Program-made: the position numbers and the translations under genes
Shown: piece by piece, positions 3,349-61,638 of the stretch
How the letters are laid out: each line of letters opens with the position of its first letter
How positions within the stretch are numbered: position 1 is the first letter of the stretch
Notes under the pieces: generated by a model
What the model was told of the DNA's origin: nothing
The model's input: only the letters and a program-made list of their open reading frames with translations
Databases searched by the model: none
Assembly: GCA_964016885.1 (NCBI GenBank)
Contig: OZ024743.1
Location: forward strand, 185,814,001-185,878,000
Source of the DNA: Eledone cirrhosa
Lineage: Eukaryota
Length of the DNA: 64,000 nt
Direction: 5' to 3'

Positions 3349-3986
3349 TAAGGATCAAGTGGTGGTATTAAATACCACTATGTGTACCCAAGGGCCAGGT
3401 AGTGGTATTAAACTGGGTAATGTGTACCCAAAGGTCAGGTAGTGGTATTAAACTGAGCAATGTATACCCAAAGGCCAGGTAGTGGTATTAAACTGGGCAA
3501 TGTGTACCCAAGGCTCAAGTGGTGGTATTAAACTGGGCAATGTGTACCCAAGGGTCAAGTGATGGTATTAAACTGGGCAATGTATACCCAAGAATCAAGT
3601 GGTGGTATTAAACTGGGCAATGTGTACCCAAAGGTCAGGTAGTTGTATTAAACTGAGCAATATATACCCAAAGGCCAGGTAGTGGTATTAAACTGGGCAA
3701 TGTGTACCCAAAGGCCAAGTAGTGGTATTAAACTGAGCAATGTATACCCAAGGATCAAGTGGTGGTATTAAACTGGGCAATGTATACCCAAAGGCCAGGT
3801 AGTGGTATTAAACTGGGCAAGGTGTACCCAAGGGTGAAGTGGTGGTATTAAACTGGGCAATGTGTACCCAAAGGCCAGGTAGTGGTATTAAACTGGGCAA
3901 TGTATACCCAAAGGCCAGGTAGTGATATTAAACTGGGCAATGTGTACCCAAGGGCCAGGTGGTGGTATTAAACTGGGCAATGTGTA
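3349..3986. repeat. 40-bp minisatellite (GGTAGTGGTATTAAACTGGGCAATGTGTACCCAAAGGCCA), about 16 copies
   Basis: Visible 40-bp periodicity with point variants and no unique spacers. Confidence 0.97.
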
Positions 3987-10514: not shown

Positions 10515-11097
10515 CTGAAAATATAGGAAAAAAAAAAATCATCATCAGCTGCAACAACAATACCACCACCATCACCAATATTTAATTTCTCTTTCCGATG
10601 CTTGCATGGGTTAGATATGTTTTGGGCTCGATTTCAATGGTTGGATGCCTTTTCTAATGCCAACTACTTTACAGCATATACTGGGACCATTTTATCATGA
10701 CTCTGGTACTAACACTGTACAAGTCTGGGTGCTTTTTGTTGTAGCACACAGTACAACAATCTTACAGAGCGGACTGGGTGCCTTTTATCATGGCACCAGT
10801 ATGACTACCTTATAGTGTGGACTGGGTACTTTTTATTGTAGCACCAGCACTACCACCTTACAGGGTGGATTGAGTACTTTTTGTTATGGCACCAGCACTA
10901 CCACTTTACAGGGTGGACTGGGTACTTTTTATAATGGTGGCAACACTACCATTTTACAGAGTAGGTTGGATGCATTGATTATAGAAAAAATAAGAAAACT
11001 TTATCAGTAAACAAGTACCGCTGAGCTATCTTCTCTCAGACACACCAAAATGAGCTATTGATATGAAAATAAAATATATAAATAATAAACAACTCAC

Positions 11098-14500: not shown

Positions 14501-17500
14501 TGAGCTATCTTCTCCTCTCAGACACACCAACACATACTGCTGAGCTATCTTTTCCTCTCAGACACACCAACACACACTGCTGAGCTATCTTCTCCTCTCA
14601 GACACACCAACACATACTGCTGAGCTATCTTCTCCTCTCAGACACACCAACACATACTGCTGAGCTATCTTCTCTCAGACATACCAAAACATACTGCTGA
14701 GCTATCTTCTCTCAGACACACCAACACATACCGCTGAGCTATCTTTTCCTCTCAGACACACCAACACACACTGCTGAGCTATCTTCTCCTCTCAGACACA
14801 CCAACACATACTGCTGAGCTATCTTCTCTCAGACACACCAACACATACTGCTGAGCTATCTTCTCTCAGACATACCAAAACATACTGCTGAGCTATCTTC
14901 TCCTTTCAGACATACCAACACATACTGCTGAGCTATCTTCTCCTCTCAGACACACCAACACATACTGCTGAGCTATCTTTTCCTCTCAGACACACCAACA
15001 CACACTGCTGAGCTATCTTCTCCTCTCAGACACACCAACACATACTGCTGAGCTATCTTCTCTCAGACACACCAACACATACTGCTGAGCTATCTTCTCC
15101 TCTCAGACACACCAACACATACTGCTGAGCTATCTTTTCCTCTCAGACACACCAACACATACTGCTGAGCTATCTTCTCTCAGACACACCAAAACATATT
15201 GCTGAGCTATCTTCTCCTCTCAGACACACCAACACATACTGCTGAGCTATCTTCTCTCAGACACACCAACACATACTGCTGAGCTATCTTCTCCTTTCAG
15301 ACACACCAACACATACTGCTGAGCTATCTTCTCTCAGACACACCAACACATACTGCTGAGCTATCTTCTCTCAGACACACCAACACATACTGCTGAGCTA
15401 TGTTCTCTCAGACACACCAACACACACTGCTGAGCTATCTTCTCTCAGACATACCAAAACATACTGCTGAGCTATCTTTTCCTCTCAGACACACCAACAC
15501 ATACTGCTGAGCTATCTTTTCCTCTCAGACACACCAACACATACTGCTGAGCTATCTTCTCTCAGACACACCAAAACATATTGCTGAGCTATCTTCTCCT
15601 CTCAGACACACCAACACATACTGCTGAGCTATCTTTTCCTCTCAGACACACCAACACATACTGCTGAGCTATCTTCTCCTCTCAGACATACCAAAACATA
15701 CTGCTGAGCTATCTTCTCTCAGACACACCAACACATACTGCTGAGCTATCTTCTCTCAGACACACCAACACATACTGCTGAGCTATCTCCTTTCAGACAC
15801 ACCAACACATAGTGCTGAGCTATCTTCTCCTCTCAGACACACCAACACATACTGCTGAGCTATCTTCTCCTCTCAGACACACCAACACATACTACTGAGC
15901 TATCTTCTCCTCTCAGACATCAACACATACTGCTGAGCTATCTTCTCTCAGACACACCAACACACACTGCTGAGCTATCTTCTCCTCTCAGACATACCAA
16001 AACATACTGCTGACCTATCTTCTCCTCTCAGACACACCAACACATACTGCTGAGCTATCTTTTCCTCTCAGACACACCAACACACTGCTGAGCTATCTTC
16101 TCCTCTCAGACACACCAACACATACTGCTGAGCTATCTTCTCCTCTCAGACACACCAACACATACTGCTGAGCTATCTTCTCCTCTCAGACATACCAAAA
16201 CATACTGCTGAGCTATCTTCTCTCAGACACACCAACACATACCGCTGAGCTATCTTTTCCTCTCAGACACACCAACACACACTGCTGAGCTATCTTCTCC
16301 TCTCAGACACACCAACACATACTGCTGAGCTATCTTCTCTCAGACACACCAACACATACTGCTGAGCTATCTTCTCCTCTCAGACATACCAAAACATACT
16401 GCTGAGCTATCTTCTCCTTTCAGACATACCAACACATACTGCTGAGCTATCTTCTCCTCTCAGACACACCAACACATACTGCTGAGCTATCTTTTCCTCT
16501 CAGACACACCAGCACACACTGCTGAGCTATCTTCTCCTCTCAGACACACCAACACATACTGCTGAGCTATCTTCTCTCAGACACACCAACACATACTGCT
16601 GAGCTATCTTCTCCTCTCAGACACACCAACACATACTGCTGAGCTATCTTTTCCTCTCAGACACACCAACACATACTGCTGAGCTATCTTCTCTCAGACA
16701 CACCAAAACATATTGCTGAGCTATCTTCTCCTCTCAGACACACCAACACATACTGCTGAGCTATCTTTTCCTCTCAGTCACACCAACACACACTGCTGAG
16801 CTATCTTCTCCTCTCAGACACACCAACACATACTGCTGAGCTATCTTCTCTCAGACACACCAACACATACTGCTGAGCTATCTTCTCTCATACACACCAA
16901 CACATACTGCTGAGCTATCTTCTCTCAGACATACCAACACATACTGCTGAGCTATCTTCTCCTCTCAGACACACCAACACATACTGCTGAGCTATCTTCT
17001 CTCAGACACACCAACACACACTGCTGAGCTATCTTCTCCTCTCAGACATACCAACACATACTGCTGAGCTATCTTCTCCTCTCAGACACACCAACACATA
17101 CTGCTGAGCTATCTTCTCCTCTCAGACACACCAACACATACTGCTGAGCTATCTTCTCTCAGACACACCAACACATACTGCTGAGCTATCTTCTCCTCTC
17201 AGACACACCAACACACACTGCTGAGCTATCTTCTCCTCTCAGACACACCAACACATACTGCTGAGCTATCTTCTCCTCTCAGACACATCAACACATACTG
17301 CTGAGCTATCTTCTCTCAGACACACCAACACACACTGCTGAGCTATCTTCTCCTCTCAGACATACCAAAACATACTGCTGAGCTATCTTCTCCTCTCAGA
17401 CACACCAACACATACTGCTGAGCTATCTTCTCTCAGACACACCAACACATACTGCTGAGCTATCTTCTCTCAGACACACCAACACATACTGCTGAGCTAT

Positions 17501-20108
17501 CTTCTCCTCTCAGACACACCAACACATACTGCTGAGCTAACTTCTCTCAGACACACCAACACACACTGCTGAGCTATCTTCTCCTCTCAGACACACCAAC
17601 ACATACTGCTGAGCTATCTTCTCCTCTCAGACATACCAAAACATACTGCTGAGCTATCTTCTCTCAGACACACCAACACATACCGCTGAGCTATCTTTTC
17701 CTCTCAGACACACCAACACACACTGCTGAGCTATCTTCTCCTCTCAGACACAACCAACACATACTGCTGAGCTATCTTCTCTCAGACACACCAACACATA
17801 CTGCTGAGCTATCTTTTCCTCTCAGACATACCAAAACATACTGCTGAGCTATCTTCTCCTTTCAGACATACCAACACATACTGCTGAGCTATCTTCTCCT
17901 CTCAGACACACCAACACATACTGCTGAGCTATCTTTTCCTCTCAGACACACCAACACACACTGCTGAGCTATCTTCTCCTCTCAGACACACCAACACATA
18001 CTGCTGAGCTATCTTCTCTCAGACACACCAACACATACTGCTGAGCTATCTTCTCTCAGACACACCAACACATACTGCTGAGCTATCTTCTCTCAGACAC
18101 ACCAACACATACTGCTGAGCTATCTTTTCCTCTCAGACACACCAACACATACTGCTGAGCTATCTTCTCTCAGACACACCAAAACATATTGCTGAGCTAT
18201 CTTCTCCTCTCAGACACACCAACACATACTGCTGAGCTATCTTTTCCTCTCAGACACACCAACACACACTGCTGAGCTATCTTCTCCTCTCAGACACACC
18301 AACACATACTGCTGAGCTATCTTCTCTCAGACACACCAACACATACTGCTGAGCTATCTTCTCTCATACACACCAACACATACTGCTGAGCTATCTTCTC
18401 CTCTCAGACATACCAACACATACTGCTGAGCTATCTTCTCCTCTCAGACACACCAACACATACTGCTGAGCTATCTTCTCCTCTCAGACACACCAACACA
18501 CACTGCTGAGCTATCTTCTCCTCTCAGACACACCAACACATACTGCTGAGCTATCTTCTCCTCTCAGACACACCAACACATACTGCTGAGCTATCTTCTC
18601 TCAGACACCAACACACACTGCTGAGCTATCTTCTCCTCTCAGACATACCAACACATACTGCTGAGCTATCTTCTCCTCTCAGACACACCAACACATACTG
18701 CTGAGCTATCTTCTCCTCTCAGACACACCAACACATACTGCTGAGCTATCTTCTCTCAGACACACCAACACATACTGCTGAGCTATCTTCTCCTCTCAGA
18801 CACACCAACACATACTGCTGAGCTATCTTTTCCTCTCAGACACACCAAAACATACTGCTGAGCTATCTTCTCTCAGACACACCAAAACATACTGCTGAGC
18901 TATCTTCTCTCAGACACACCAACACATACTGCTGAGCTATCTTTTCCTCTCAGACACACCAACACACACTGCTGAGCTATCTTTTCCTCTCAGACACACC
19001 AACACATACTGCTGAGCTATCTTTTCCTCTCAGACCTACCAACACACACTGCTGAGCTATCTTCTCCTCTCAGACACACCAACACATACTGCTGAGCTAT
19101 CTTTTCCTCTCAGACACACCAAAACATACTGCTGAGCTATCTTCCCTCAGACACACCAAAACATACTGCTGAGCTATCTTTTCCTCTCAGACACACCAAA
19201 ACATACTGCTGAGCTATCTTCTCTCAGACACACCAAAACATACTGCTGAGCTATCTTCTCTCAGACACACCAAAACATACTGCTGAGCTATCTTCTCCTC
19301 TCAGACATACCAACACACACTGCTGAGCTATCTTTTCCTCTCAGACACACCAACACATACTGCTGAGCTATCTTTTCCTCTCAGACACACCAACACACAC
19401 TGCTGAGCTATCTTTTCCTCTCAGACACACCAACACATACTGCTGAGCTATCTTTTCCTCTCAGACACACCAACACATACTGCTGAGCTATCTTCTCCTC
19501 TCAGACACACCAACACATACTGCTGAGCTATCTTTTCCTCTCAGACATACCAACACACACTGCTGAGCTATCTTTTCCTCCCAGACACACCAACACATAC
19601 TGCTGAGCTATCTTTTCCTCTCAGACATACCAACACACACTGCTGAGCTATCTTTTCCTCTCAGACACACCAACACATACTGCTGAGCTATCTTTTCCTC
19701 TCAAACATACCAACACACACTGCTGAGCTATCTTCTCCTCTCAGACACACCAACACATACTGCTGAGCTATCTTTTCCTCTCAGACATACCAACACATAC
19801 TGCTGAGCTATCTTTTCCTCTCAGACATACCAACACATACTGCTGAGCTATCTTCTCCTCTCAGACACACCAACACATACTGCTGAGCTATCTTCTCCTC
19901 TCAGACACACCAACACATACTGCTGAGCTATCTTTTCCTCTCAGACATACCAACACATACTGCTGAGCTATCTTCTCTCAGACACACCAACACATACTGC
20001 TGAGGTATCTTTTCCTCTCAGACACACCAAAACATACTGCTGAGCTATCTTTTCTTCTCAGACACACCAAAACATACTGCTGAGCTATCTCTCCTCAGAC
20101 ACCAAAAC
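11571..20108. repeat. Intronic satellite, 40/37-bp monomer ACTGCTGAGCTATCTTCTC(CTC)TCAGACACACCAACACAT, roughly 220 copies
   Basis: Directly visible tandem array filling about 94% of the NPC1 intron between exons 7 and 8. Confidence 0.99.
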
Positions 20109-22578: not shown

Positions 22579-22947
22579 CTAAAATAGTCAAGAAATATAA
22601 AAATAATGTACAACTTCAGAAGAGAGATTTGAAAATAAACAAAATAGACTTACAGAGTTTATATTCTGGTTTAAAACAATGTATATTAACAAGTAAATAA
22701 ACTAAATTGACAAACTGGTGCTTAGTATCCAGAACAAATGAAAAGAGATATATTTCACTCAATTCTTTAAACCCACATATCACTATAGTTAGAAGAATTT
22801 AGGCTAACAACTGTTTGAACAAATTTGAAATACTAGATCTGTATCTAGAACAAATGTATATGAAGGGCAACACTGAAACAGATATTAAATGAACAAGAAT
22901 GTAATAAGTTAATTAAACATAAAAAAAAGTATTCAATATCAACATAC

Positions 22948-23174
22948 ATGGCACAGGTTTCTATGTGGTCAAGATAGTTAGCATATTGAAAAAATATAGA
23001 TTTGTTCAATTTATCAAGGTTTGCAGGGCTATTCTGGAAATACTGGAATATACTCTGAATTGTACAATTATTATTGGAAGGAGATAAAGGTGTAAAGCAG
23101 ATGTCATTTAGACCAATTGTCTTGTTGTTGTATTCTACAGTTAGTTCAGAAACAGAGTTTTGCAACTCAAGAAC
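22948..23174 (-). CDS. NPC1: NPC1 exon 5 (middle luminal domain, VLELQ...LNDICFTPL...CTIQSIFQYFQN...YLDHIETCA)
   Basis: Family motifs; TTTCAG acceptor, AT|GTATGT donor; 227 nt. Confidence 0.95.
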
Positions 23175-23344
23175 CTGAAAAGACAAAAGAAAAACTTTAT
23201 AGATTGAAACATCCTATTCTATTGAAATTACTAATACATGTTTATTATGTGTTGGAGAGCTGTGTTTTAAATACAGATAGTCTTCTGGATTAATCAAATA
23301 ATTTGGAAGATGTGATTTCTCACATCCTTTCATTGAACTGGTTT

Positions 23345-24365
23345 TATCTTATGGAATAAGTAAGAAGAGTAGAAATTCCATCCTATGTCCCAAATGCAAA
23401 CTATGGGTACACAAAAGATGTAGTAGGATTTCAAGTAGGCTAGCAAAGAAAGCAGGTTTTATATGTAGTCGTTGAACAGGTGCAGTATGTAGGAGCCCAG
23501 AGGACACTAGCTCCTCTAAATGCCCAGAGGGCTTGGTAGAAGTAATTGATAGATTCTGTTACCTGGGCATCCAAATTACCAATAGAGGTGGGTGTTACGA
23601 AAGTACTGTAGCTAGAGTGAGAACAAGATAAAGAAAGTTCAGGAAGCTACTATAGCTGCTCACTATAAAAAAAATTTTCCTCCAAAATGAAGGGCAGATT
23701 GTATGATGCAAGGGCAGATTATATGTTGCGTGGTAGTGAGACCTGGGTATTGTGTGCAGAGGACCTGCGAAGGTTGGAAAGAAATGAAGCTGGCATGCTT
23801 TGAATAGCAAAGCATAAATGAACTGAGAGAGAAACTAGGCATAAGAGGAATCAGATGCAATGTGCAGGAGAGGAGATTGCGCTGGTATGGACATGTAATG
23901 CGTATGAAAAATGACAGTTGTATAAAAAGGTGCAGGGTGCTCAAAGTTGATGGAAGCTATAATGTAGGAAGACTTGGGATGAGGTGATAAAAGCTGACCT
24001 TAGACAATTGCACTTCTTCAAGGTGATGACACAGGAATGAAATCTCTGGTGTTATGCAGTAATATAGAAGAGCTGCCTTCCCAAGTGCAACGGTTGTAGC
24101 ATACATCATGTTTGCACTAACCCCTGTCTCCAGATAAGTACCCCACTCCACACTGTAAAGTGGTTGTTTTGGTGGCATGAGAAACATTGCCCAGTCCACA
24201 CTGTAAATGTGGTTGGTGTTAGGAAGGGCATCCAGCTGTAGAAACAAAGCTAGAAACACTTCTGTATAAACAAGACAGTCATCTGATCTGACTTGTCTAA
24301 CAGGGAGACAACTCGTCTAACCCATGCTAGTGTGGAAAATGGACGTTAAACAGTAATGATGATGA
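23345..24365 (+). mobile_element. Degraded RTE LINE 3' end with GAT tail
   Basis: Similar to the RTE C-terminus (GAGATTGCGCTGGTATGGACATGTAATGCG) and the shared 3' tail. Confidence 0.82.
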
Positions 24366-25210
24366 GTCCTTTCTTGTACTGCTATCAGATCTAACATAGC
24401 TGCTTAATCTACCTCTCATTAATTTGCACTTATATCTAAATTAATTTTATTATGATGTCAAAAATTGATAAAATTCCAAAAGATTATATGGAAATAATTT
24501 TATTATGATGTCAAAAATTGATAAAATTCCAAAAGATTATATGAAAATATAAAATAAAAATGCCTAGTATAATTGGATCATCACTATCGATAATTTCAAG
24601 AGCAAGTTAGACTGGTGGAGCTCATCCTTCTCTAGACTATCAACTATGACCAGAAATTACAGTAAACGTTACATGAAATAATTCACTGGAAACGAGCTGC
24701 ATTACAAATTTGGTATCATGAGAGCTTACTAGCATTGCATGGCTCTTATACATGGTAGGTATATGCTGTATATACACAACACTTGGTATCATGAGAGCTG
24801 ACTAATACTACATGGCTCACATGTATGGCAGATGAATGCTGTATATATAAACTTATGCTGGATAAGGATTCAAAATTTACTTAAGTGTGAAGATTATTAA
24901 GTATTGATGAAAAGCTAATATCCCTAGAATCATCATTAATGTTTAGCATCTGTTTTCCCTGCTAGCAAAGGCTGGACATTTTGTCATAGACTGGTCAGTA
25001 GTCAAGCAAAGTCACTGACCTCCAGGGGGCACTAAGAGCTCTACTGAGTGCATTTTATCATGCCACCAACACTAGGGAAGTTATATTCTTGACACAGCTG
25101 AAGAGTGAACTTGGCCCTTTGTTTGGCAGAATTAATCATGGAAAATATACAGGTTTCTAGCCAATTGTGTTTATAAGAAAACAATGAATAAAAGAACCAA
25201 ACTCTCTAAC

Positions 25211-25343
25211 CTGGTGCATGAAATCTTTATCAAAAATTGGACTGTAATAAACATGGTCAGCTGATGGTGGTGGCAGGGGATGTTTGACGAGAGAGTTGTT
25301 GCCATTCCTTGTAATAATTATCATTTCACTACGATAAAAAGGT
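25211..25343 (-). CDS. NPC1: NPC1 exon 4 (PFYRSEMIIIT...FDKDFMHQ)
   Basis: Completes the FGPFYR motif across the junction; AAG acceptor, CAG|GTTAGA donor; 133 nt. Confidence 0.93.
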
Positions 25344-25954
25344 CTTTAAAAGAAAAAAAACAAAACAAATTAAGATGCTCTGATACAATTCTAAATCATA
25401 ATGATAATTATTAAAAATCCTTGTATTACCATTCTGAGACTAGTGTGAATGCTTTTTAATGCTACTGTGCTGTCAGATTGAATAGCACTGCAGTACACCA
25501 ACTTTTCTTGCATCTCCATATATTGTTTGTGACAGGAAAGAACTCCATATATTTAGATTATTTTAAATGTGAATCTAAAGTTATAGTTAGATATAGTGTA
25601 AACATAAAATGAAGTATAACAAACAGAAATTGTAGAATCTACAGAGATGTAGTTATATAAGTATCACACACACATACACACGATATATGATGGTTAGATT
25701 GCAGTAAATATTGGCATATACTGTATTCAGCACTCAATGTAATGTTGTGATTCAAAGGTGTAGTAGTGCCAGCTGAAGAGATGGATAATAGCATATACTT
25801 GGTATCAATAGAAATTGCTCAATATATGTATAAACATTTTGAGTTGAGCTCTCTCTCCATTTATGCAAATCTGAAGATGCCATAATCTCAGAGCCGAACC
25901 CAATCATTACATTATAATTTATGTCATTATGAATAATTTTGAGGTAATTATGTG

Positions 25955-26075
25955 AAGGCGTGTGGCTGTGGTTAGAGAGTTGAATTCACAATCACAAGGT
26001 TGAGAGTTCAATTCCCAGACAGGGTGAAGCATTATGTCCTGAAACAAGACACTTTATTTCATGGTGCTCTTTCTG
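25955..26075 (+). mobile_element. Second tRNA-headed SINE family (inverted copy at about 31140-31275)
   Basis: TGGCTGTGGTTAG A-box-like, GAGTTCAATTCC B-box, CAAGACACTTTATTTCA body. Confidence 0.68.
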
Positions 26076-26451
26076 CCAAGAGTTGCAACCAGTTGATAGT
26101 ATCAACAATTGAAAAAAACCAATAAGAACATTGTTTCCTTGGTCCAATTTGACAAGTTTCACCCCACTCAGTAAGAAAATGAAGTCTGGGCTATTGTCGA
26201 TCGTAAAAAAAAATGTGAGTGAAACATGTAATAAGAATAAACATTTCATAAATTGACATTTTCTTCTCCATTATATATATATGAGATAGAAAGATGGGGA
26301 CTGACAGATAGACAATGATATTGGCAGAGAAGAGTTAAAAACATTTTACCCCCACCCCTTGTCTTACATTTGTGTTCCATGGATTCTAAATAAAAATAAA
26401 AAAAATATGTTTTTAACAGTCTAGTATTTGTGTGTGACAGATAAAGAAACT

Positions 26452-26625
26452 TCATTGGCAGTATCGGTAGAGGGTCGGACACCATGCTTTGATGCATAGT
26501 TACAGCCCTTGCCATTCTGAGTTCAAATCCCGCCGAGGTTAACTTTACCTTTCATCCTTAGGGGGTCGATAAAATAAAGTACCAGTAATGTACTGGGTAT
26601 TGCTGGCCTTGTGCCAAAAGTAGAA
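26452..26625 (+). mobile_element. tRNA-derived SINE (related copies at about 1366-1560, 1575-1760, 28090-28270, 36380-36550, 38975-39110, 39910-40055, 60835-61025)
   Basis: A-box-like TGGCAGTATCGG, B-box GAGTTCAAATCC, shared body CTTTCATCCT...GTCGATAAAATAAAGTACCAGT...GGCCTTGTGCC. Confidence 0.8.
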
Positions 26626-26704
26626 ACAATTATCTTTATTATCCTTAACTTTGATGAGAATTGTGGAGGTGTTAATAGCAAGGACAGATAAAGTGATAAC
26701 TTAC

Positions 26705-27704
26705 CCAAAGTTTGTATCAAAGTAATTTTTTTCTAGTCGAGCTTCGCTGTCTGGAGCTGACCACAGCAACACAGGATCAGTAATAACCTTGAATCTTATA
26801 ATCCCACATGAAAGGATGGTAGAAACAACCAAACTAATTAGAATAACCCTCAGTGGGAATTTAGCACATAAATAGCCCCATTTATAAAACTTTTCATCTA
26901 AAAAATGTATAAATTTATCACCTAAAGCAGATATTTTATTGTTAGATACTTGAATTGTTTCTCCTAAGACTGGATAATTAGATAACTGAGAAGATTCTTT
27001 CCCATCTGCTACTCCCAAACTATTTTGCCACACAATATTTTCCCAAATAACATAAGACATGAATAAAATAAAGAACCCTAGAAATATAGAGCCCCATATA
27101 AAGTCATAAGCATTAATATAGAGAATCTCCCAAGTTTTGGAGCCCTTGGGTATTGGTGGAAAGGGGGGACATGAACCGCTGCAGTCCTGACAGCTACAAG
27201 CCGGTGTATCATTATTTGTAGGTGAACTACAAGGAATTAATGTGTAATTCATGGGAATTAGAGTTTTATTAGGAGATACTTTCCAAGGAGATTTTGTGAT
27301 GTTGAAGTCAATAGATATAGGAGTGTATCCATTGTTAGTGCCACCCATAAATTCCAACCACTTTTTAATGGTGCAATGTTTACCAGCATTCCCACACATC
27401 ACTGTAAGGGCTTTCATATTAGCGCTCGGCATTTGAACATTTTTGCAGGAATCAATTAGGCCATTGGCAAATACGGGATCAACAGCATACTTAATGCCAA
27501 AAACCGCAGGTCTGCCAGAGGTATTGCGTTTATCAGAAACAAAGACGTATTTACTTTGTTCAATATCACAAGTGAAAGCACAATAAAGGTTACGGAAGTT
27601 GTAATAACATGACGGGCAGCGTGCTAACATATCCTGTGCTTGGCCCAGACTTATTGCAAAATTGTGAATTGTCTTATTATTACAGCAAGTCTTTGTCTTA
27701 GGAC
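26705..27704 (-). CDS. NPC1: NPC1 exon 3 (1000 nt; rest of NTD, proline linker, TM1, TM2)
   Basis: RCPSCYYNF, CSCQDCSGSCPP, TDPVLLWSAPDSEARLEKNYFD; TTTCAG acceptor and GG|GTAAG donor; phase 1 to phase 2. Confidence 0.97.
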
Positions 27705-28779
27705 CTGAAAGAATAAAAAAAAATTGAAAACAAATAACATTAGGCATGGAAAATTTGTAAAAATGTCCCAATTGAAAATGTTCTAAATAGACATTGCTTA
27801 TCCTAATTATGCATAATATTAAATGAACAACATAAACAAGTGTTAGATGAGCTTAAATAAGTGAAAGGGTAATGCAATATCATCAATCAGACAGACTTTT
27901 TTGTTTTTATTTAGTTGGATGCTCTTCAAATGTATATTTGTAACAAAGATCTTGGTGTCATAAATTATTTCAACTGAAGGTTTTTCCATCTCATCCCAAA
28001 CTGACTAACTTCAGTTCCTTCAGATGTTTTTTTTCATCATTCTTTCAAACCAATTCAGACAATCCAAGCTATGTAAGATGTAATTCAATGTTTGGCAGAA
28101 TTGTTAGAGCATTAAACAAAATGCTTTGTGGTATTTAGTTTTGGCTTTTACACTCTGAGTTCAAGTCCTGCCAAGGTCAACTTTACCTTCATCCTACAAG
28201 AGTTGATAAAATGAAGTACCAGTTAAGTAATGGTGTTGATATAATTGCTGGCCTTGTGCCAATGTTAGAAATTATTATAATATTGTATAAAAAAAAGAAC
28301 CCATAAACATCTCTTGTAGAGAGCTCAGCTTATACAGTTGCTAAGACACACAAGCTATACTCTTACACCATCTACAGTCCTCTATACAGTTAGCTGATGT
28401 TTAATTCAAGTTTGTCAAAGCATAAAATGTATTAAGGATACAATCTCAGTCCAGTCTGTTTACTAGCTAAATATACAGAACTTATGATTATTAAGAGTAC
28501 TGTATCTTATCTGCAGTATGACATTAACTCACAACACTTAAGCCAATTGTCTAATAATTTAATCATTTCATTTTGATGGCAAGTGGAGAGACACTGTGCC
28601 GCTTTAGAATAAGTACACTATGTCACAAGAAGCAACTAAAAGAGTTAGTGTAAGGAGGGGCATCTGGCAGTAAAACATTGCCTCAAAAAGTTGTCTAGCC
28701 CATGCTAACATGGAAAAGTTGACAGGATGATGATGCTGATGATGATTCAGTTAATTGAGACTTTTTCCTCTTTTAAGCT

Positions 28780-29820
28780 CCTTTAAATGCCCAGAGGGCA
28801 CTGTATAAATAGTTGATAGTTTGTTACATGGGTGACCAAATTAGCAGTGGGGAAGGATGTCCCAAAAGCACAGTAGCCTGAGTGAGAACAGATTGGAGAA
28901 AGTTCAGGGAGTTACTACCACCACTAACTACAAAAGGTTTTTCTCTCAAAATGAAGGGCAGATTGTATGATGCATGTATATGAACAGCAATTTGCATGGT
29001 TGTAAGATCTGGGCACTGTGTGCAGAGGACCTGCAAAGTTTGGAAAGTAACGAAGCTTGCATGCTTTGATGGATATGTAATAGTAATATACATGAATGGC
29101 AAAGCATAAATGAAATGAGAGAGAAATTGTGCATAAGAGGGATTAGCTGAAGTGTGCATTGCTGTGAGACGTGATATGTATGAAGGATGACAGCTGTATA
29201 AAAAGGTGCAGAGTGCTCAAAGTTGATGGTTGCTATGGAGTAGGAAGACCTAGGAAGACTTAGATGAGGTGATAAAAGCTGACTTTGCAAATTGCACCTC
29301 ACAAAGGTGATGACACATGACCATGGTCTCTGGAATTATGCAGTAATAGAGAAGACCTGCCTTCTCATATGCATAGTCTGAGGCATACATCTAGTATGCG
29401 CTGCCTACCCCTCCATAATTCCTACCATACACCTCCTATGGCATAACAGCCCACCCATGACCTAACACACAATTTTTTACCCATGGCCCTAGATCTACCT
29501 CTCCAATCCCCATGCACCTCCCCAACCCAAGTTCGCAGTCCACACTATAAAAAGGTCATTTTGGTGCCACAACTATGAGCACCCAGTCTACACTGTAAAG
29601 TGATCATGTAGGTGTCACGACAAAAAGCACCCAGTACACACTGTAAATGTGGTTGGCATTAGGGAGGGCATCCAGCCATAGAAGCCAAGCAAAATCAGTT
29701 CTGTATGAGCAAAACACGGTCATCTGACCTGGCTTGTCTCAATGGGACAGCTTGTCTAACCCATGCAAACATGGAAAATGGACATTAAACAGTGATGATG
29801 ATGATGATGATGATGATGAT
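28780..29820 (+). mobile_element. Degraded RTE LINE 3' end with (GAT)n tail
   Basis: Same family motifs and tail. Confidence 0.82.
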
Positions 29821-30372
29821 ATACCTCAACATCTATCATAGCACAGTTTTCAGCCTTAGCAATTAATTTGTTTGCAAACTAATAGATGTTGAATCATATA
29901 TCAGTTGTAGTTTTTCTTCAGAAGATGTTTTGTTTTTGATGTCTAACAATAGAGACATTATTTGGTTTTTAATAATATTTTAAAAAAAAACAATAAAAAA
30001 TGATAACTAACATTTGTACTTATGAAAGAAGACAACAAGCAGATTTGATAAATATAAAATTTATAATAAAAATGTAATTAAACCCGTTAATGCAGTGGGT
30101 ATTGCTGGTTTTTCTCTGCAGCAACACCTTTGCTCTTTTGTCCATTGGGGGTAGCTGAGATTTACTAACTAGACTGGGGTGTAGGGTTTGCTGCTCCTTT
30201 CCCCTTTCTTTTCGTTATTACATTTTTTTTCTTTTTCTTTTATTGCAAACAATATATAATTTAACTGAAATTTGTTGAATAAAATATCTAGTGACCAACT
30301 GCATAATTATGTGAAAATTGCTGAAACAATTATGGTATTTTTCTAACAAACAAGAAATAATATGATATTTAC

Positions 30373-30529
30373 CTTTGTAAAGTGAGGGACAGTATAACTT
30401 TAAGAGTTTCAAGCCACTTGGAGCAGTGAGTGGCTTTGGTGGTCCATTATAGACACAATTAGTTGGCATGCCATTATATCCTGTACCACATACATCATAC
30501 CATATACAATGGCCTTCTTCACAGGACAC
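30373..30529 (-). CDS. NPC1: NPC1 exon 2 (start of N-terminal sterol-binding domain, VSCEEGHCIWYDVCG...LYCPSLYK)
   Basis: CIWY-x-x-C and NCxYxGPP motifs of the NPC1 NTD; AG acceptor, G|GTAAAT donor; 157 nt, ends in phase 1. Confidence 0.95.
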
Positions 30530-31999
30530 CTTTAATAAGAAAGAGTTAGTAAAAATGTAACAAAAACAAAAAGGATAACTAAAAACACTGCAATATATTT
30601 TTAACAGTTTGAAGTTAAGTTAAGTCATTTCAAACATTTCATCTTTATGAGCTGAAAAGAAAGTTATAGGATAGATAGTGTTGAGTGTGAAAGCTGGTGT
30701 GAATGACAAAGCTTTTCAATGTGTACTGAAGAGATTGTTGTATCACGCAGTAATAAATTAAAGGGCACAGCTGATTAGTGGAATGTCATGAGCTTAGAAG
30801 GTAAACTACAGTGAATTTATATATATAGTAATAATAATAAATTTGAAGACTTTAATCTGTTATTTTAATAAATATATATATATAATCATCATCATTGATT
30901 AACGTCTATCTTCCATGCTAGCATGGGTATATCATCATTATCATCATCATTTTATGTCCGCTTTTCCCTGCTTGCAAGGGTGAGACGGGAACTGATTCTG
31001 GCTTGATTTCTACAGCTGGATTCCCTTCCTAACACCAACCTCATTTACAGTGAGTGCTGGGTGCTTTTTTTTTTTTTCCATGGCGCCTACACGTCCACTT
31101 TACAGTGGAATGATAGGGACCCCAGTCCTATCATCTCATTTCTACAGCTGAGTAAACTGGAGCAATGTGAAATAAAGTGTCTTGCTCAAGAAAACAACAT
31201 CACCCCGTCTGAGAATTGAACTCACAACCTTTCGATTGCAAGGCCAATGCTCTAACCACTAAGCCATGTGCCTCCATATATATATAAGATTGGAGACCAT
31301 ATTCAGTTGAACCAGGTTTATTTAAAGCTCTGTTGTACATATTTCACTGACAACTATCAGTTAAGATAGCCTGAGGTCTTCAGACGGCTGTATATATATG
31401 ATGTGCGTGTGTATCCTGTTCAGAATAGGAACAGTATATCTTTATGTATAATAAGTGACTAAAAGGGTTAGTGCATCCGGATGTCAAACATTGTCTCAAA
31501 AAGTCCACTCCAACCAATGCCAGCATGGAAAAGTTGACGTAATTGTGTGTAGGTGCATGTGCAATATAAAATCTGATTTAAATAAGTTAAATTGCAGGAG
31601 GCTGTAGTAAAACAGGAAACTGATTACAACAATGTTAATATTTTCTAATTAAAAACAAAATTTCTTTTAATTATTTGAAGCCAGCTATACCAAATCAATG
31701 AGAAATATCTGGCTCTTATTCATAAGAGCAGAATCATAACCTTTTTAGAGAGTCGATGTGGTTACTTGACTTGCTAGAAATAGCAGCGTAATCACCTAAA
31801 AAAGGACAAATTGGATAATGTAGTGTGGTATATATAGTAAACCTTAAAGAGAATAGGATGTTCATGACTGAGTAAACTTGTTTATGCCTGAGCTATCAGT
31901 ACTGACCTAGGGCTAAATAACTACTTTTGATCCACTTGAATTGAGAGCCATAAATAACAGAACAAAGTTGATATGGCTATGGTTTAGTTTGAATTCTTA

Positions 32000-36617: not shown

Positions 36618-38790
36618 ATCATCATCATCATCATCATCGTTTAACGTCCGTGTTCCATGCTTGCATGGGTTTGGACGGGAGTTTTCCCACTTGAGGCAAG
36701 AGTGGTTGTCTTGCTCGCATAGGACTGTCTGGCGGGTTTTCTACAGTTGGATGCCCTTCCTAACACCAACCACATTTACAGTGTGGGGCTGGGAGGTTTT
36801 TACCGTGTTGCCTACACGGCCACATTACAGCGTGGACTGTCTGGCAGGTTTTCTACAGCTGGATGCCCTTCCTAACACCAACTACATTTACAGTGTGGGA
36901 CTGGGACGTTTTTACCGTGTTGCCTATACGGTCACATTACAGCGTGGACTGTGTTTTTTTGTCGTGACACCTACACGATCTCATTTGTTTCGGCCTGGAT
37001 TTTGTGGCACCAACATAACTTTACATTGAAAGGGGTGGTGTGGATGGGGTGGGGGTGTATTTTGTTAGAGATGCCTACTGACTGTAGTAGGTTTTACTTT
37101 GTATTTAGGTAACGCGGGTCTTCTCTATTACTGAGTACCGCCAAAGCTCTCGGTCCAGTGACATTGTCTTGGAGAGGTGTAAGTGTGTGAGGTCGGAATT
37201 TATCAGCTCGTCCCAGGTTTTTCTGGGTCTGCCTACTCCGTGGCTACCGTCTATCTTTATTGCCCTGCACTTTGTTATACAGCTGTCGTCTTTCATGCGC
37301 ATCACATGACCATACCAACGTAGCCTTCTCTCGAGTAAACAACATCTGATCCCTCTTATTTCTAATTTTTTCCTTAGTTCGTTTATGCTTTGCCGTTCGC
37401 GTATATTACTATTACACATCCAGCGGAGCATGCAAGCTTCGTTCCTCTCTAGTCTGCGTATATCCTCTGCACACAATGCCCAGGTCTCACTGCCATGCAA
37501 CATTGCTGTTCGTATGCAGGCATCATACAACCTGCCTTTCACTTTTAGGGAGAACCCTTTAGCGGCTAATAGTGGTATAAGCTCTCTGAACTTTTTCCAT
37601 CCAGTTCTGACTCTAGCTACTGTACTTTCGGAGCACCCTCCCCCACTGCTGATTTTGTCACCCAGGTAACGGAAGCTGTCCACTATTTCTATAGAACCCT
37701 CTGCGCAGTTGAAAGAGCTAGTATTTTGTGGGCACTTGCTGCTACTTATTGCACCAGAGCACCGGCCACATGTAAAATCTATGTTCTTAGTTAGCTTCCC
37801 TGTGATCCCACTACATCTTTTATGCACCCATACTTTGCATTTGGGACATAAAATGGAGTTTCTACCTACGCCTTTCCTGCACACTGAGCATGGCCATTTC
37901 CCGGAAGGGACCGGCGCCTTATTTTCTTTCCTACAAACTAGAACTTTAGTCTTAGCCATGTTAATTTTAAGGCCTTTTGATTCTAGGCCGTGCTTCCATG
38001 TTTGGAATTTCTTCTCTAGCTTGGCCATTGATTCAGCTATGAGCGTTAGGTCATCTGCGTATAGGAGTTCCCATGGGCAGCCGGTCTTGAACTCCTCTGT
38101 TATAGCCTGAAGAGCAATAATGAATAGTAGGGGCTAAGAACAGAGCCCTGATGGACACCAACTTTTACGCTAAAATCTTCACTATATTCGTTGTTAATTC
38201 TAACCTTGCTCACTGTTTCTTTATACATGGCTTGTATAGCTCTCACAAGCCATTCGTCAACACCTAGTTTTCTAAGAGCCCACCAGATAATGGAACAGGG
38301 GACTCTGTCGAAGGCTTTCTCCAAGTCGACAAAGGCTAAGTATAGGGGTTTACCTTTAGCTAGGTACTTCTCCTGGAGTTGTCGTACAATGAAAAGAGCG
38401 TCTGTGGTACTTTTGCCTGACACAAACCCAAACTGCATTTCATCTAGATCAATTCTCTCTCTGATTAGTTGCACTATTACTTTTTCCGTGACCTTCATGA
38501 CCTGGTCGATTAATTTAATCCCTCTATAAGTTACTCCTATCTAGGGCGTCTCCTTTACCCTTGTAACAGTTAATGATGATGCTGCTACGCCAGTCCTTCG
38601 GAACAACCCCATTCTGTATGACTTGGTTTACTATCCGGGTGACCATGGTGTGTCCAACCGTTCCAGAGGCCTTCAGCATCTCAGCGACTATTTCCGAAGG
38701 CCCAGCCGCCTTACCCGTCTTCATATCTTTGATTGCCTTATGGATGAATCTGTAACTCCTGGCGCAGTCAAAGGGGCGTTGTAGTAACAA
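36618..38790 (-). mobile_element. RTE-clade LINE, 5'-truncated, frameshifted RT with 3' UTR and (GAT)n tail
   Basis: ORFs 38524-38790, 38100-38498 (QFGF, FVDLEKAFDRVP, GVHQGSVLSP), YADDL near 38060, and 37105-38028 (FRYLG, RLRWYGHVMR, GRPRKTW). Confidence 0.95.
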
Positions 38791-57313: not shown

Positions 57314-57543
57314 TTAATATTCTGTTATTGTTTTTCTATAGAAACACTGCTTTCCAGTAGAAGTACAGTCAAGATTTAGGTATGGTCTTCCTACACTGTA
57401 AAGTTTACAAGTCCCATCACTCTGAAGAAGAATCAGCTGACAATCATGTGTTAGCAAACATCTAGATGCACATTCTACTTCTCCGCCATCTTGCTTTAAC
57501 AATAGCTTGTTTGCAACCATATGAGTTGTTTTAGTAAAAAGAT
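57314..57543 (-). CDS. Probable terminal coding exon of a small PAN/Apple-like cysteine protein (DLFTKTTHMVANKLL...ECASRCLLTHDCQLILLQSDGTCKLYS...DCTSTGKQCFYRKTITEY*)
   Basis: C-x3-C-x5-C...C-x-L-Y spacing typical of PAN/Apple modules; TTTCAG acceptor at 57544 (phase 1), TAA stop, AATAAA at 57250-57245. Upstream exon not found. Confidence 0.55.
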
Positions 57544-58983: not shown

Positions 58984-59016
<33 letters not shown>

Positions 59017-59095
59017 TATATAGTACATTATGAAGATAGAAGAAACATTAGATATAATTAGTAATAAGATATATCATACCTAGCTGGTTCTTCAG

Positions 59096-59189
59096 TCCCC
59101 GACTACGTAGTTTCGTGGCATATTATGCAAAAACACTAGATCATAGAGATATAGAGTTTTTGTGAGGTTCTGCCGACTTATCAAGGGGA
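59096..59189 (-). ncRNA. Type I hammerhead ribozyme, family C copy 1 (variant core UUGAUAA, long stem II, GUC site)
   Basis: Minus strand: TCCCC-TTGATAA-gt(c)ggca...caaaaac...gtttttg...tgccac-GAAA-CTACGTAG-TC-GGGGA. Confidence 0.75.
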
Positions 59190-59691
59190 TACCTCATTAA
59201 GGATTTCAAAACACGTCTGTGATGCGCGAGATAGAATCTTGAAAAGGCGGAGGGAGAGTCAATCACGTGATACAGCGGTCAAGAAACAGAGCTAAGCCCC
59301 TTATAACCCTGAAAAAAATACCACGGAGGCGGAGGGGGTATTCATATCAAAGCCGTAGAAGAGGTGGTTTGAGGAGGCGAGAAGTATGAGTAATGGTAGC
59401 TATCCAGCAGTCACTACACTTCAAAGGTTACTCGACCAAAGGGAGTTATAAACAATAAATAGAGAAACACACAGATACATGCGGACACATACATATACAT
59501 GAATATATCCACACATATCCCTGGGTTAGTGGTACCAACCTCAACCGATGTTGCTCTATGAATAACTGGGACAAAACAATCCGAATGGATTAGACTGATT
59601 CAGTATCAGAGCTATATAATACATTATGAAGAGAGAAGAAACATTAGATATAATTAGTAATAAGATATATCATACCTAGCTGGTTCTTCAG

Positions 59692-59785
59692 TCCCCGACT
59701 ACGTAGTTTCGTGGCATATTGTGCAAAAACACTACATCAAAGAGATATAGAGTTTTTGTGAGGTTCTGCCGACTTATCAAGGGGA
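59692..59785 (-). ncRNA. Type I hammerhead ribozyme, family C copy 2
   Basis: 596 bp from copy 1; identical core, stem I and stem III, with substitutions only in the distal stem II region. Confidence 0.75.
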
Positions 59786-61638
59786 TACCTCATTAAGGGT
59801 TTCAAAACACGTCTGTGATGCGTGAGATAGAATCTCGAAAAGGCGGAAGGAGAGTCAATCATGTGATACAGCGGTCAAGAAACAGAACTAAGCCCCTTAT
59901 AACTTTATAATGTACTTTATAGCTCTGATACTGAATCAATCTAATCCATTCGGGTAGTTCTGTCCCAGTTATTCATAGAGCAACATCGGTTGAGGTTGGT
60001 ACCACTAACACAGGGATATCTGTAGATATATTCATGTATATGTATGTGTCCGCATGTATCTGTGTGTTTCTCTATAAATATTGTTTATAACTCCCTTTGG
60101 TCGAGTAACCTTTGAAGTGTAGTGACTGCTGGATAGCTACCATTACTCATACTTCTCGCCTCCTCAAACCACCTCTTCTACGGCTTTGATATGAATACCC
60201 CCTCCGCCTCCGTGGTATTTTTTTCAGGGTTATAAGGGGCCTAGCTCTGTTTCTTGACCGATATTTCTACATATTGAGCAGGGCGGCCACTTCCCTGAGA
60301 GAATCAGAGTCCTATCTTCTTTCCTACTTACTAGCACTTTAGTTTTGGCTAAGTTTACTCTCAGACACTTTGATTCCAAATTCTTTTTCCATAATATATA
60401 AGCATGGAATATAGATGTTAAAAAGTAATGATGATGATAACGATGGTGGTGGTGGTGATGGTGGTGGTGGTGATGGTGGTGGTGATGGTGGTGGTGGTGA
60501 TGATGATAGTGGTGATAATGTGGTGAATAAATATATAATTGTTAAACAATTTATCAGTGAATGATTATTAAATAATTAAAACAGGAATAATGTTCTTAAG
60601 TTAATCACCATTAAGCAGAGGAAGAATAATATTGGAGAAATAGGGGATTTAGATTTTAATAGATAACAGTCAGATTAATAAATATATAAGAATATTCTTA
60701 TGTTAATAGTTATTGAACCATTAAATCAGGAAAAATTATTTCAAGTTTTAATGAATAGTTAAGAAATTATGAAACAATTAAATCAAAGATAACATTCTTA
60801 AGTTAATGCGTACTAAATAATGATTTCTGATTGAGGCACAAGGCCAACAATTTTGGTGGAGAGAGTTAATTATATTTACCCCAGTGTGTTACTGGTATTT
60901 TATTTTATCAACCTCATAAGGACGAAAGGCAAAGCTAACCTCAGCAGGATTTAAACTCAGAGTGTAAAGGACCCTAACTCTATGCCACAAAGCATAATGT
61001 CCAACGCTCTACTGATACTGGCAATCCATCGCACTCAAATGATTATTAAATAATAAAATCAGGTGGTTTGCCTAAAAAATTATTAGAGATAATCTCCAGT
61101 GCACTTTTTTATGGTGCGTGATTGAATGTGTAGGTCTTCTCTCCCCTCTTCTTTTCCTTCCTTATTATTACTCCCTTTTTTCTTCTTTTTTTTTAGTATT
61201 GCATAGGCTTGTTCATTATACAAATTGTACTGGCAATGTGATATTATATACATTTAATATCTCATTGTCAGTACAGTTTATAAAATGCACAAGTGTACAC
61301 TCTAATCGGTTGGGTTTGTATTTTAACAATACAGACATAATGAAATTATTGAGTGAATGAGAAAACGACTGAAGCTGTGTCCATTCTATTTGATATACTT
61401 TGTTTCATAATTATATATATATATCATTATCATCATCACCATTTTATGTCCATTTTTCCATGCTAGCCTGTGGGCTGGGTGCTTCTTGTCGTGAAACCTA
61501 CATGACCACTTTACAGTGTAGGCTGGGTGCTTTTTGTTGTGACACCTACACGACCACCTTACAGTGTAGGCTGGGGGCTTCTTGTTGTGACACCTACATG
61601 ACCACTTTACAATATGGTCTGAATATATTTTGTTTATA

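What the first reader, a model, noticed from the sequence alone, without database searches (positions are those of the whole stretch)
59024..60260. Retrozyme-like 596-bp unit carrying a hammerhead with a compensated variant core (UUGAUAA)
Seen: two minus-strand motifs exactly 596 bp apart (59096-59189, 59692-59785). Each reads TCCCC-TTGATAA-[about 60-nt stem II]-GAAA-CTACGTAG-TC-GGGGA, with a perfect stem I, self-complementary stem III (ACTACGTAGT) and a GUC site. The unit has no ORF and is followed by an inverted partial copy. Established: hammerhead positions 3 and 8 form a Watson-Crick pair, so C3U plus G8A keeps the pair, and a CUGANGA motif search would miss it. Type I HHRs with short palindromic stem III, tandem repeats and inverted truncated ends are hallmarks of Penelope-like pseudo-LTRs and of non-autonomous retrozymes that yield circular RNA. 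Inference: a cephalopod non-coding retroelement whose transcript self-cleaves twice to release a 596-nt monomer, probably via a dimeric hammerhead, that could circularise and be copied by a Penelope RT in trans.
Basis: partly seen in the sequence, partly recalled or inferred. Interest (0 to 1): 0.9.

Follow-up and report, generated by a model that had tools for sequence, protein, structure and literature searches.

The report
Ribozyme retroelement copied from edited circles
This is one of thousands of copies of a 600-base non-coding mobile element that carries a predicted self-cutting RNA; letter changes shared by all repeats of an insertion suggest that each was likely copied round and round from one circular, probably enzyme-edited, RNA molecule, which would be rare genomic evidence for how Penelope-type elements move.

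Summary
Confirmed: two type I hammerheads (UUGAUAA core, palindromic stem III) lie 596 bp apart in an ORF-less unit. The U3-A8 core is already published for Schistosoma Penelope-like elements.

The unit is a dispersed family (6,344 exact core 15-mers; four subfamilies; arms up to about 12 units). Its 3' ends sit at two fixed TA-rich sites running into (TA)n, not at the cleavage site. Head-to-head insertions use one site per arm (99 of 102 pairs with two such ends). An autonomous Neptune-like element in the genome has the same core variant, target and paired ends.

In the young sister subfamilies, all units of an insertion share one haplotype (0.2% discordance vs 17.5% between insertions). Template-level variants are biased to sense-strand A>G (23 vs 10 T>C). 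They recur at ADAR-like sites and are uniform within arrays (110 vs 5 mosaic).

Best reading: a non-autonomous Penelope-type retrozyme, reverse-transcribed repeatedly from one monomeric, likely circular and A-to-I-edited RNA. Cleavage, circles and editing are inferred; no RNA data were available. The partner is unproven, and the window copy is older, partly mosaic and truncated. The scan noted a similar hammerhead-less repeat in another genome.

The parts
58984..59022 (.). (TA)n microsatellite into which the main arm's 3' end runs (target tract; 6-nt TATATA microhomology with the unit)
   Evidence: 296 of 306 S1/S2 ends in the family are followed by (TA)4 within 30 nt
59017..59023 (-). 3' end site S1, +78 to +84 nt after the cleavage site (inferred reverse-transcription start)
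   Evidence: the autonomous Neptune-like family has an end at +82
59024..59619 (-). full 596-bp unit of the main arm (subfamily A)
59096..59189 (-). downstream type I hammerhead, U3-A8 core; predicted cleavage 59101/59100
59101..59696 (-). predicted 596-nt monomer between the two cleavage sites (40% GC); folds better than shuffles
   Evidence: z -3.09 linear; z -5.55 as circle, 25 shuffles
59447..59461 (-). second TA-rich end site S2 (unit position about 160-174), internal in this copy
59620..59903 (-). 5'-truncated upstream partial unit (unit positions 314-597)
59692..59785 (-). upstream type I hammerhead, U3-A8 core; predicted cleavage 59697/59696
59904..59906 (.). head-to-head junction of the two arms (3-nt T filler)
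59907..60260 (+). inverted second arm (unit positions about 590-597 then 1-345). It lacks the usual S2 end and (TA)n flank, so its 3' part was probably deleted after insertion

Best explanation
The window holds a 1.5-unit copy, plus an inverted arm, of a high-copy non-coding repeat that is likely a non-autonomous Penelope-type retroelement (retrozyme), whose transcript is predicted to self-cleave at two hammerheads into a ~596-nt monomer that would be closed into a circle, probably A-to-I edited, and copied into (TA)n tracts by a Penelope-like RT/endonuclease supplied in trans.

Shown: the family, the conserved ribozyme fold, two fixed 3' ends in (TA)n, random 5' ends, one-of-each end use in two-armed insertions, one haplotype per insertion, and a sense-strand A>G excess among template-level variants.

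Inferred: the endonuclease cuts both strands of (TA)n. Each DNA end primes on the same RNA molecule, one at S1 and one at S2. Each RT runs around the monomer for a variable distance (up to about 12 laps). The two cDNAs are joined 5'-to-5' by microhomology. Edits present on that one RNA therefore appear in every unit of both arms.

Untested: cleavage (probably helped by a dimeric stem III), ligation, editing, and the identity of the partner.
For: Family and ribozyme: 6,344 exact core 15-mers vs 3 for the reversed control. The 43 hammerhead columns differ at 2 positions between subfamilies D and B vs 133 of 539 elsewhere (p=0.0012). One stem I pair occurs as C-G, U.G and U-A (10/4/22 of 36 distinct rows).

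Penelope pattern: 306 of 327 arms end at S1 (164) or S2 (142). Of 119 head-to-head pairs, 99 are S1+S2, 3 are S1+S1, 0 are S2+S2 and 17 have another end. An autonomous RT+GIY-YIG element (L162) has a U3-A8 hammerhead in both repeats (11,539 exact 30-mers), ends at +82/+150 in (TA)n, and pairs them one-of-each in 8 of 12 two-hammerhead loci.

Single template: diagnostic-site discordance in B is 4/2644 (tandem) and 3/1586 (inverted) vs 46,647/266,220 between insertions. Private variants are shared by 7-14 units (L201, L271). The longest arm is 6,975 nt. There are 3 indel letters at the cleavage junction in 454 spanning segments, and 5 of 99 S1-arm 5' ends lie near S2, so this is not L1-type twin priming.

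Editing: rare all-unit variants are A>G 23 vs T>C 10 unique sites (p=5e-4). Single-unit variants are 13 vs 44 (Fisher 2e-5). The 5' neighbour is U-rich and G-poor (one-sided p 0.046 and 0.03), and upstream G depletion is the ADAR signature (PMC5625713 passages). The six most homoplastic of 46 sites are all A/G (5-11 changes). They form 19 combinations in 64 insertions of one background and are all-G in 110 vs mixed in 5 site-by-insertion cases.
Against: No RNA-level observation was possible. In vitro, the Anolis Penelope element inserts without needing its hammerhead, and no RNA-seq reads ended at its cleavage site (PMC11167929). 8 of 9 Xenopus retrozyme dimers did not cleave (bioRxiv 10.64898/2026.07.22.740005). 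Metazoan minimal hammerheads cleave poorly.

The strongest statistics come from sister subfamilies B/C, not the window's subfamily A. There, within-insertion discordance is 8% (44/523, 40/496) vs 33% between, the A>G excess is not significant (6 vs 4), and the window copy is itself discordant at 4 of 12 and 2 of 20 sites.

A-vs-B conservation of the ribozyme alone is not significant (2/43 vs 83/531, p=0.07). Long-term lineage substitutions show no clear A>G excess (B 13 vs 11, A 4 vs 5). With strictly private variants the A>G:T>C binomial is not significant (9 vs 7, p=0.2). A>G sites are not enriched in predicted pairs (20/33 vs 80/132). Their 3' neighbour does not show the A preference reported for invertebrate hyper-editing.

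5' ends at the cleavage site are only one of several small bumps (5 of 245 vs 1.2 expected; top window 8). No significant sequence similarity links the unit to any sampled autonomous element.
Confidence: 0.65

Rival explanations
1. The template is a single cleaved monomer whose ends are held together by stem I without ligation, and the RT jumps the nick on each lap.
For: It explains one haplotype per insertion as well as a covalent circle does. Stem I pairs the 5' and 3' ends of the monomer. There is a small bump of 5' ends at 512-514 (5 of 245 vs 1.2 expected).
Against: There are almost no scars at the junction (3 indel letters in 454 crossings). Arms of up to about 12 laps exist, and 5' ends do not pile up at the nick. 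Other animal retrozymes are found as covalent circles (PMC7229834 passages).
Confidence: 0.15
2. Uncleaved linear read-through transcripts of genomic arrays are the templates, with internal RT starts as shown for the Anolis element; the hammerhead is a passenger.
For: Internal initiation and hammerhead-independence were shown in vitro (PMC11167929). A homogeneous source array gives homogeneous daughters. A few variants are shared by a subset of units (20 vs 287 single-unit and 78 all-unit events).
Against: It cannot lengthen arrays or spread a new variant to all units without a monomer step. Independently edited units would give mosaics, yet 2 of 184 hot-site cases with four or more units are mixed. 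Arms overlap freely in unit coordinates. The ribozyme is conserved across subfamilies.
Confidence: 0.12
3. The recurrent A>G changes are not ADAR edits. They are site-specific polymerase/RT errors, or old polymorphisms shuffled among many master copies by recombination or gene conversion.
For: No RNA data. There is no pairing enrichment and no long-term lineage excess. Mosaic copies such as the window's show that conversion occurs.
Against: Single-unit changes, which include RT errors and later DNA mutation, are biased the other way (13 A>G vs 44 T>C). Shuffling would inflate homoplasy at all site types, but the six top sites are all A/G and other sites have at most 4 changes. Upstream G is depleted. 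This rival concerns only the editing step.
Confidence: 0.3
4. The arrays are satellite-like DNA amplified by unequal exchange, or by a DNA rolling circle (Helitron-like), after ordinary insertion.
For: Two variants are shared by adjacent units in L105, and there are a few similar cases.
Against: The 3' ends are fixed and the 5' ends random, both inverted arms are multimeric with one haplotype, and the variants are strand-asymmetric. Subset-shared variants are rare (20 vs 287).
Confidence: 0.05

Closest known systems
Animal non-LTR retrozymes (Cervera & de la Pena 2020, PMC7229834; Li, Clavereau & Pollet 2026, 10.64898/2026.07.22.740005)
   Same: Non-coding, GC<50%, tandem units each with one type I hammerhead; monomers to multimers dispersed in a genome rich in Penelope-like elements; proposed circular intermediate.
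   Different: The unit is about 591-596 nt (170-400 nt typical; 51-972 in the 2026 survey). The hammerhead is of the Penelope type, with a U3-A8 core and a long stem II extension. Insertions are strictly (TA)n-targeted and two-armed, with paired ends. In the parts I read, no single-template or editing analysis is reported.
Hammerheads in the pseudo-LTRs of Penelope-like elements (Cervera & de la Pena 2014, PMC4209133)
   Same: Short helix I, long bulged helix II, G10.1-C11.1, small palindromic helix III, and U3-A8 covariation (about 1,300 hits in Schistosoma). The authors propose circular templates for more-than-unit reverse transcription.
   Different: Here the repeat has no ORF between hammerheads, helix III is a 10-nt palindrome, and loop II is extended to about 50 nt.
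Poseidon element PAc of Anolis (Frangieh et al. 2024, PMC11167929) and Neptune/Naiad insertion anatomy (Craig et al. 2021, PMC8557442)
   Same: Two internal RT start sites downstream of the hammerhead, AT-rich target, both strands extended, inverted 5'-truncated arm, tail at one end only.
   Different: The tail here is about 170 nt (30-40 nt described). In vivo the two arms use different start sites almost without exception, whereas in vitro no strand difference was seen. The element is non-autonomous.
Autonomous Neptune-like element in the same genome (L162; 'Neptune' by its CxxxxCxxC linker, as described in PMC8557442)
   Same: U3-A8 type I hammerhead, 3' end about 82 nt after the cleavage site, (TA)n target, one-of-each paired ends.
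   Different: No significant sequence similarity (best E 0.49); second end at +150 rather than about +250; sampled copies look older than subfamily B. It is a candidate partner only.

Membership tests
Type I hammerhead ribozyme | Three helices around the conserved core with a 3-8 Watson-Crick pair, GAAA and a UH site | tested here: met
   U3-A8 in 36 of 36 distinct rows (rows were picked with a fuzzy motif that includes the core)
Type I hammerhead ribozyme | Structure maintained by covariation or selection | tested here: met
   stem I C-G/U.G/U-A; 2/43 vs 133/539 columns differ between D and B. Only 2 pairs show two-sided change, and A vs B gives p=0.07
Type I hammerhead ribozyme | Match to an Rfam hammerhead model | tested here: not met
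   no hammerhead among 31 matches at E<=10; probably due to the long stem II insert and variant core (inference)
Type I hammerhead ribozyme | Site-specific self-cleavage | not testable with these tools
   the active monomer fold is 1.1 kcal/mol above the MFE and the palindrome duplex is -12.9 kcal/mol; predictions only
Non-LTR retrozyme | Tandem non-coding units, each with a type I hammerhead, at least two in a row | tested here: met
   (most frequent spacings 591, 593, 595 and 590)
Non-LTR retrozyme | Dispersed, high copy, no LTR/PBS/PPT, low GC | tested here: met
   PBS/PPT not searched for specifically
Non-LTR retrozyme | Expressed as linear and circular monomer RNA | not testable with these tools
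   no RNA run was available; the genetic evidence for a monomer template is indirect
Non-autonomous Penelope-like element | Partial tandems, 5' truncation, inverted 5' arm, tail at one end, microsatellite target | tested here: met
Non-autonomous Penelope-like element | Sequence similarity to the pseudo-LTR of an autonomous partner | tested here: inconclusive
   none found in 46 GIY-YIG loci (of 150 scored from 10,597 candidates) or against L162; sampling was small and 3' UTRs were only partly covered
Autonomous Penelope-like element | ORF with RT and GIY-YIG between pseudo-LTRs | tested here: not met
   no ORF or coding remnant in the unit; the one nearby same-strand ORF that I inspected is separated by (TA)n

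The most novel reading that the evidence does not exclude
Each young insertion is a DNA record of one ribozyme-made circular RNA, read by two Penelope RTs from two fixed start sites for up to a dozen laps, with that molecule's own A-to-I edits written into every repeat. This would be in vivo genetic evidence that hammerhead-generated circles are Penelope/retrozyme transposition templates, and a standing route by which RNA edits enter heritable DNA.
Probability: 0.45. Interest if true: 0.82.

Novelty: new variant of a known kind. Interest (0 to 1): 0.62.

Why it matters
The role of the hammerhead in Penelope-like elements is described as unclear (PMC8557442 passages), and the circular-template idea is a proposal (PMC4209133) that in vitro work did not need (PMC11167929). 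This family is young, has thousands of copies and forms long arrays, so the RNA template can be read from the genome. One haplotype per insertion, paired start sites and all-unit A>G changes point to one monomer copied repeatedly. That gives concrete, cheap tests: cleavage, RNase R northern, and editing at six named sites. If the editing holds, retrozyme circles carry ADAR edits back into the germ line. The ribozyme variant itself is not new.

Tried and rejected
Rfam scan: no hammerhead.

Expression: no RNA holder listed. Laying two of the three runs gave only short contigs with no informative joints. Neither counts for or against.

Partner search: a Pfam accession recalled from memory was not in the library. 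GIY-YIG loci (30 plus 16 fetched) showed no similarity to the unit. tblastn of six Penelope-like proteins against the units gave nothing significant. A pattern for the same stem III in a different stem II context gave 52 hits; of the 30 fetched, 29 matched this family. A Penelope ORF just downstream of an array (L217) is separated from it by (TA)n.

My first guess that inverted arms come from a second RNA (prompted by the window copy) was rejected: inverted arms are as concordant as tandem units. L1-type twin priming was rejected. I first took the 82%-identical relative for an older subfamily; it is the youngest. An apparent 5'-end hot spot near unit position 550 was not borne out: junctions there are scattered.

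Literature: 'C3U/G8A' found no paper, but the variant is printed as U3-A8. Lunse et al. 2016 was not held. The organism group was not tested.

Full report
OBSERVATION. The minus strand carries two 94-nt motifs at 59785-59692 and 59189-59096 that fit a type I hammerhead. They have a 5-bp stem I, a UUGAUAA core (U3-A8), a stem II closed by G10.1-C11.1 with a bulge and a long inner hairpin, GAAA, a 10-nt palindromic stem III and a GUC site. A strict descriptor of my own finds exactly these two in the window and none in 12.76 Mb of shuffled window. Rfam does not report them. The main arm is a full unit (59024-59619) preceded by a 5'-truncated partial unit (59620-59903), and its 3' end runs into (TA)n at 58984-59022. 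A second arm (59907-60260, + strand) is joined head-to-head. No frame over 61 aa lies inside. The predicted monomer folds better than shuffles: z -3.09 linear, and -5.55 and -7.24 as circles for subfamilies A and B with 25 shuffles each.

FAMILY. The own genome (3.0 Gb) gave 2,598 first-look candidates, 40 of them scored. It holds 6,344 exact copies of a 15-mer spanning the core and stem II, against 3 for the reversed control. I found four subfamilies. A is the window's, with copies 93-97% identical to it. B has a 591-bp period, is 82% identical to A, and its copies are 99-100% alike, so it is very young. C is close to B, and D is 71-80% identical to B. The ribozyme is conserved: 2 of 43 functional columns differ between D and B vs 133 of 539 elsewhere (p=0.0012); between A and B it is 2 of 43 vs 83 of 531 (p=0.07). 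One stem I pair is found as C-G, U.G and U-A. In 36 distinct aligned ribozymes 95.2% of pair cells pair, against 30-53% for slid controls, but only two pairs change on both sides, and the rows were picked with a fuzzy core motif.

INSERTION ANATOMY. I examined 197 merged loci: 53 from the first pattern hits along one contig, chosen only by the 15-mer, and the rest chosen by similarity to particular queries. They hold 327 arms. Of these, 164 end at site S1 (about +80 nt after the cleavage site), 142 at S2 (about +250) and 21 elsewhere. 296 of 306 S1/S2 ends are followed by (TA)4. 5' ends are scattered around the unit. Of 119 head-to-head pairs, 99 are S1+S2, 3 are S1+S1, none is S2+S2, and 17 have one other end. 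Junctions mostly overlap by 0-5 nt. The window copy is one of the 17: its inverted arm stops at unit position 345 against a LINE fragment, with no (TA)n, which I read as a later deletion (inference). The longest arm is 6,975 nt, about 11.8 units. This is the anatomy described for Penelope-like elements: partial tandems, inverted 5' copy, tail at one end, (TA)n bias (PMC8557442, passages), and two internal RT starts (PMC11167929, parts 1-2 of 4).

PARTNER. GIY-YIG retroelements are abundant (10,597 candidates). One family, L162, has a 938-aa frame with RT and GIY-YIG matches and a CxxxxCxxC linker. It carries a minimal U3-A8 hammerhead in both repeats and has 11,539 exact 30-mer copies. It ends in (TA)n at +82 or +150 after its cleavage site; in 12 two-hammerhead loci among the 30 fetched, 8 pair +82 with +150, 3 pair +150 with another end, and 1 has +150 twice. 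The S1 distance matches ours. There is no significant sequence similarity, so it is a candidate and a mechanistic model, not an established partner.

ONE TEMPLATE PER INSERTION. In the first B/C set (242 segments, 79 insertions), at 28 sites whose minor letter occurs in four or more insertions, units of one insertion disagree at 4 of 2,644 comparisons in tandem and 3 of 1,586 across inverted arms. Between insertions the figure is 46,647 of 266,220 (pairs are not independent). Variants private to an insertion are carried by all its units, for example six in 7-8 units of L201, and two rare ones in 14 units of L271. Subfamily A is noisier (8% vs 33%), and the window copy disagrees at 4 of 12 and 2 of 20 sites, so it is partly mosaic. 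In the unselected set 29 of 78 arms cross the cleavage junction twice or more; single crossings are built into the sampling. There are 3 indel letters at the junction in 454 spanning segments. S1-arm 5' ends do not cluster at S2 (5 of 99), which excludes L1-style twin priming on a linear multimer. A monomer read more than once is the simplest account. Whether it is covalently closed cannot be told from DNA.

A>G SIGNATURE. The enlarged set has 595 segments in 161 insertions. I dropped segments under 92% identity to the B reference or under 40 nt, four edge columns per segment, three duplicated loci and two duplicated copies. Rare variants shared by all units of an insertion are A>G at 23 unique sites and T>C at 10 on the RNA strand (expected share 0.39, p=5e-4). 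Single-unit variants are 13 and 44 (Fisher p=2e-5). The excess holds in the unselected loci (14 vs 4 events) and the long arrays (13 vs 2), and across both orientations (12 vs 5). Upstream neighbours are U 13, C 5, A 4, G 1, and upstream G depletion is the shared ADAR preference (PMC5625713, passages). On a tree of 127 natural units the six most homoplastic of 46 segregating sites are all A/G, with 11, 11, 7, 6, 6 and 5 changes. Five of these six are polymorphic in both main backgrounds, and seven A/G sites form 19 combinations in 64 insertions of one background. At the six sites, insertions with two or more units are all-A in 487, all-G in 110 and mixed in 5 cases. New G letters thus enter all units at once, as expected if one edited monomer is re-read.

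Against the editing reading: strictly private variants alone are 9 vs 7 (p=0.2); subfamily A shows 6 vs 4; fixed lineage changes show no clear excess; the sites are not enriched in predicted helices; the 3' neighbour does not show the invertebrate A preference; and parsimony counts depend on a poorly resolved tree. Editing is therefore an inference (about 0.65-0.7).

MECHANISM. Shown: ribozyme-like fold and its conservation, two fixed ends in (TA)n, paired end use, one haplotype per insertion, and strand-biased recurrent A>G. Inferred: transcription of a copy with two hammerheads; cleavage, probably through the dimeric palindrome (duplex -12.9 kcal/mol, while the monomer active fold lies 1.1 kcal/mol above the MFE); ligation; editing; double-strand cutting of (TA)n; priming at S1 and S2 on the same RNA; rolling reverse transcription; and a 5'-5' microhomology join. 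The rivals are a nicked circle with RT jumping, a linear multimer, a non-ADAR source of A>G, and DNA-level amplification.

WHAT IS KNOWN. U3-A8 hammerheads occur in Schistosoma Penelope-like elements, and the circular more-than-unit model was proposed there (PMC4209133, parts 1-2 of 4). Animal non-LTR retrozymes are expressed as circles (PMC7229834, passages) and are argued to derive from pseudo-LTRs, with 1 of 9 tested dimers cleaving (10.64898/2026.07.22.740005, parts 1-3 of 5). I also saw passages of a review (PMC6765202). Searches for hammerhead+octopus+Penelope, retrozyme+ADAR+editing, cephalopod+editing+Penelope, edited genomic retro-copies, Penelope+rolling circle and cephalopod+ribozyme+retrotransposon listed no paper whose title or abstract describes this family or edits fixed through a retrozyme. 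The library lacks most subscription papers, and I read no supplements or repeat databases, which may already hold the family. From recall only, ADAR-type A>G hypermutation is known in retroviral proviruses. The earlier scan note e1-7810660 describes a similar (TA)-targeted non-coding tandem repeat without a hammerhead in another genome (not checked).

VERDICT. The element is a new variant of a known kind. Its value is the genomic evidence on the template, and the possible editing record, both untested at RNA level. Interest 0.62.

Noticed in passing
window 59018-59079 and 59614-59675, minus strand (unit positions about 541-605): Just 3' of the cleavage site the unit reads like a short spliceosomal intron: AG|GTAT donor, TACTAAT branch-like motif, pyrimidine tract. 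The donor is kept in subfamilies A, B and D, but the nearest AG is not kept in B. Penelope elements retain 5' introns. No spliced copy was noticed.
   Followed up: no
L162 (G000:C1:145870300-145876600) and family: Autonomous Neptune-like element with a U3-A8 minimal hammerhead, 11,539 exact 30-mer copies, and ends at +82/+150 in (TA)n. A related family (L168) also seems to have a UUGAAAA core, while L169 has a CUGAAGA core.
   Followed up: partly
multi-unit arrays of subfamilies B/C: Single-unit variants are biased to T>C on the RNA strand (44 vs 13 A>G; 14 vs 1 in the youngest set). This could be a per-lap RT error signature.
   Followed up: partly
hammerhead stem II extension, alignment A3: Five A-U pairs of the inner hairpin vary only to G.U across subfamilies, as accumulated A>G changes would.
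   Followed up: no
window 60261-60400, minus strand: LINE fragment abutting the truncated arm; its translation resembles the LINE frame at 37105-38133 ('RTE-like' is my recalled label).
   Followed up: no
window 57317-57532, minus strand: Exon-like frame with a weak PAN-like match (E 0.0014, below cut-off); the element may lie in an intron of this gene.
   Followed up: partly
window 22845-30619, minus strand: Exons that look like a Niemann-Pick C1-type gene (recalled resemblance).
   Followed up: no
window 11576-20096 and 3380-3986: An 8.5-kb array of a 39-40-bp unit (218 copies) and a second 40-bp array; a 48-bp repeat family recurs at 10725, 22053, 29536 and 61469.
   Followed up: no
L010 (G000:C4:19143070-19146666) and L147: Young B-type copies sit next to or inside older family members at shared (TA)n tracts.
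   Followed up: no
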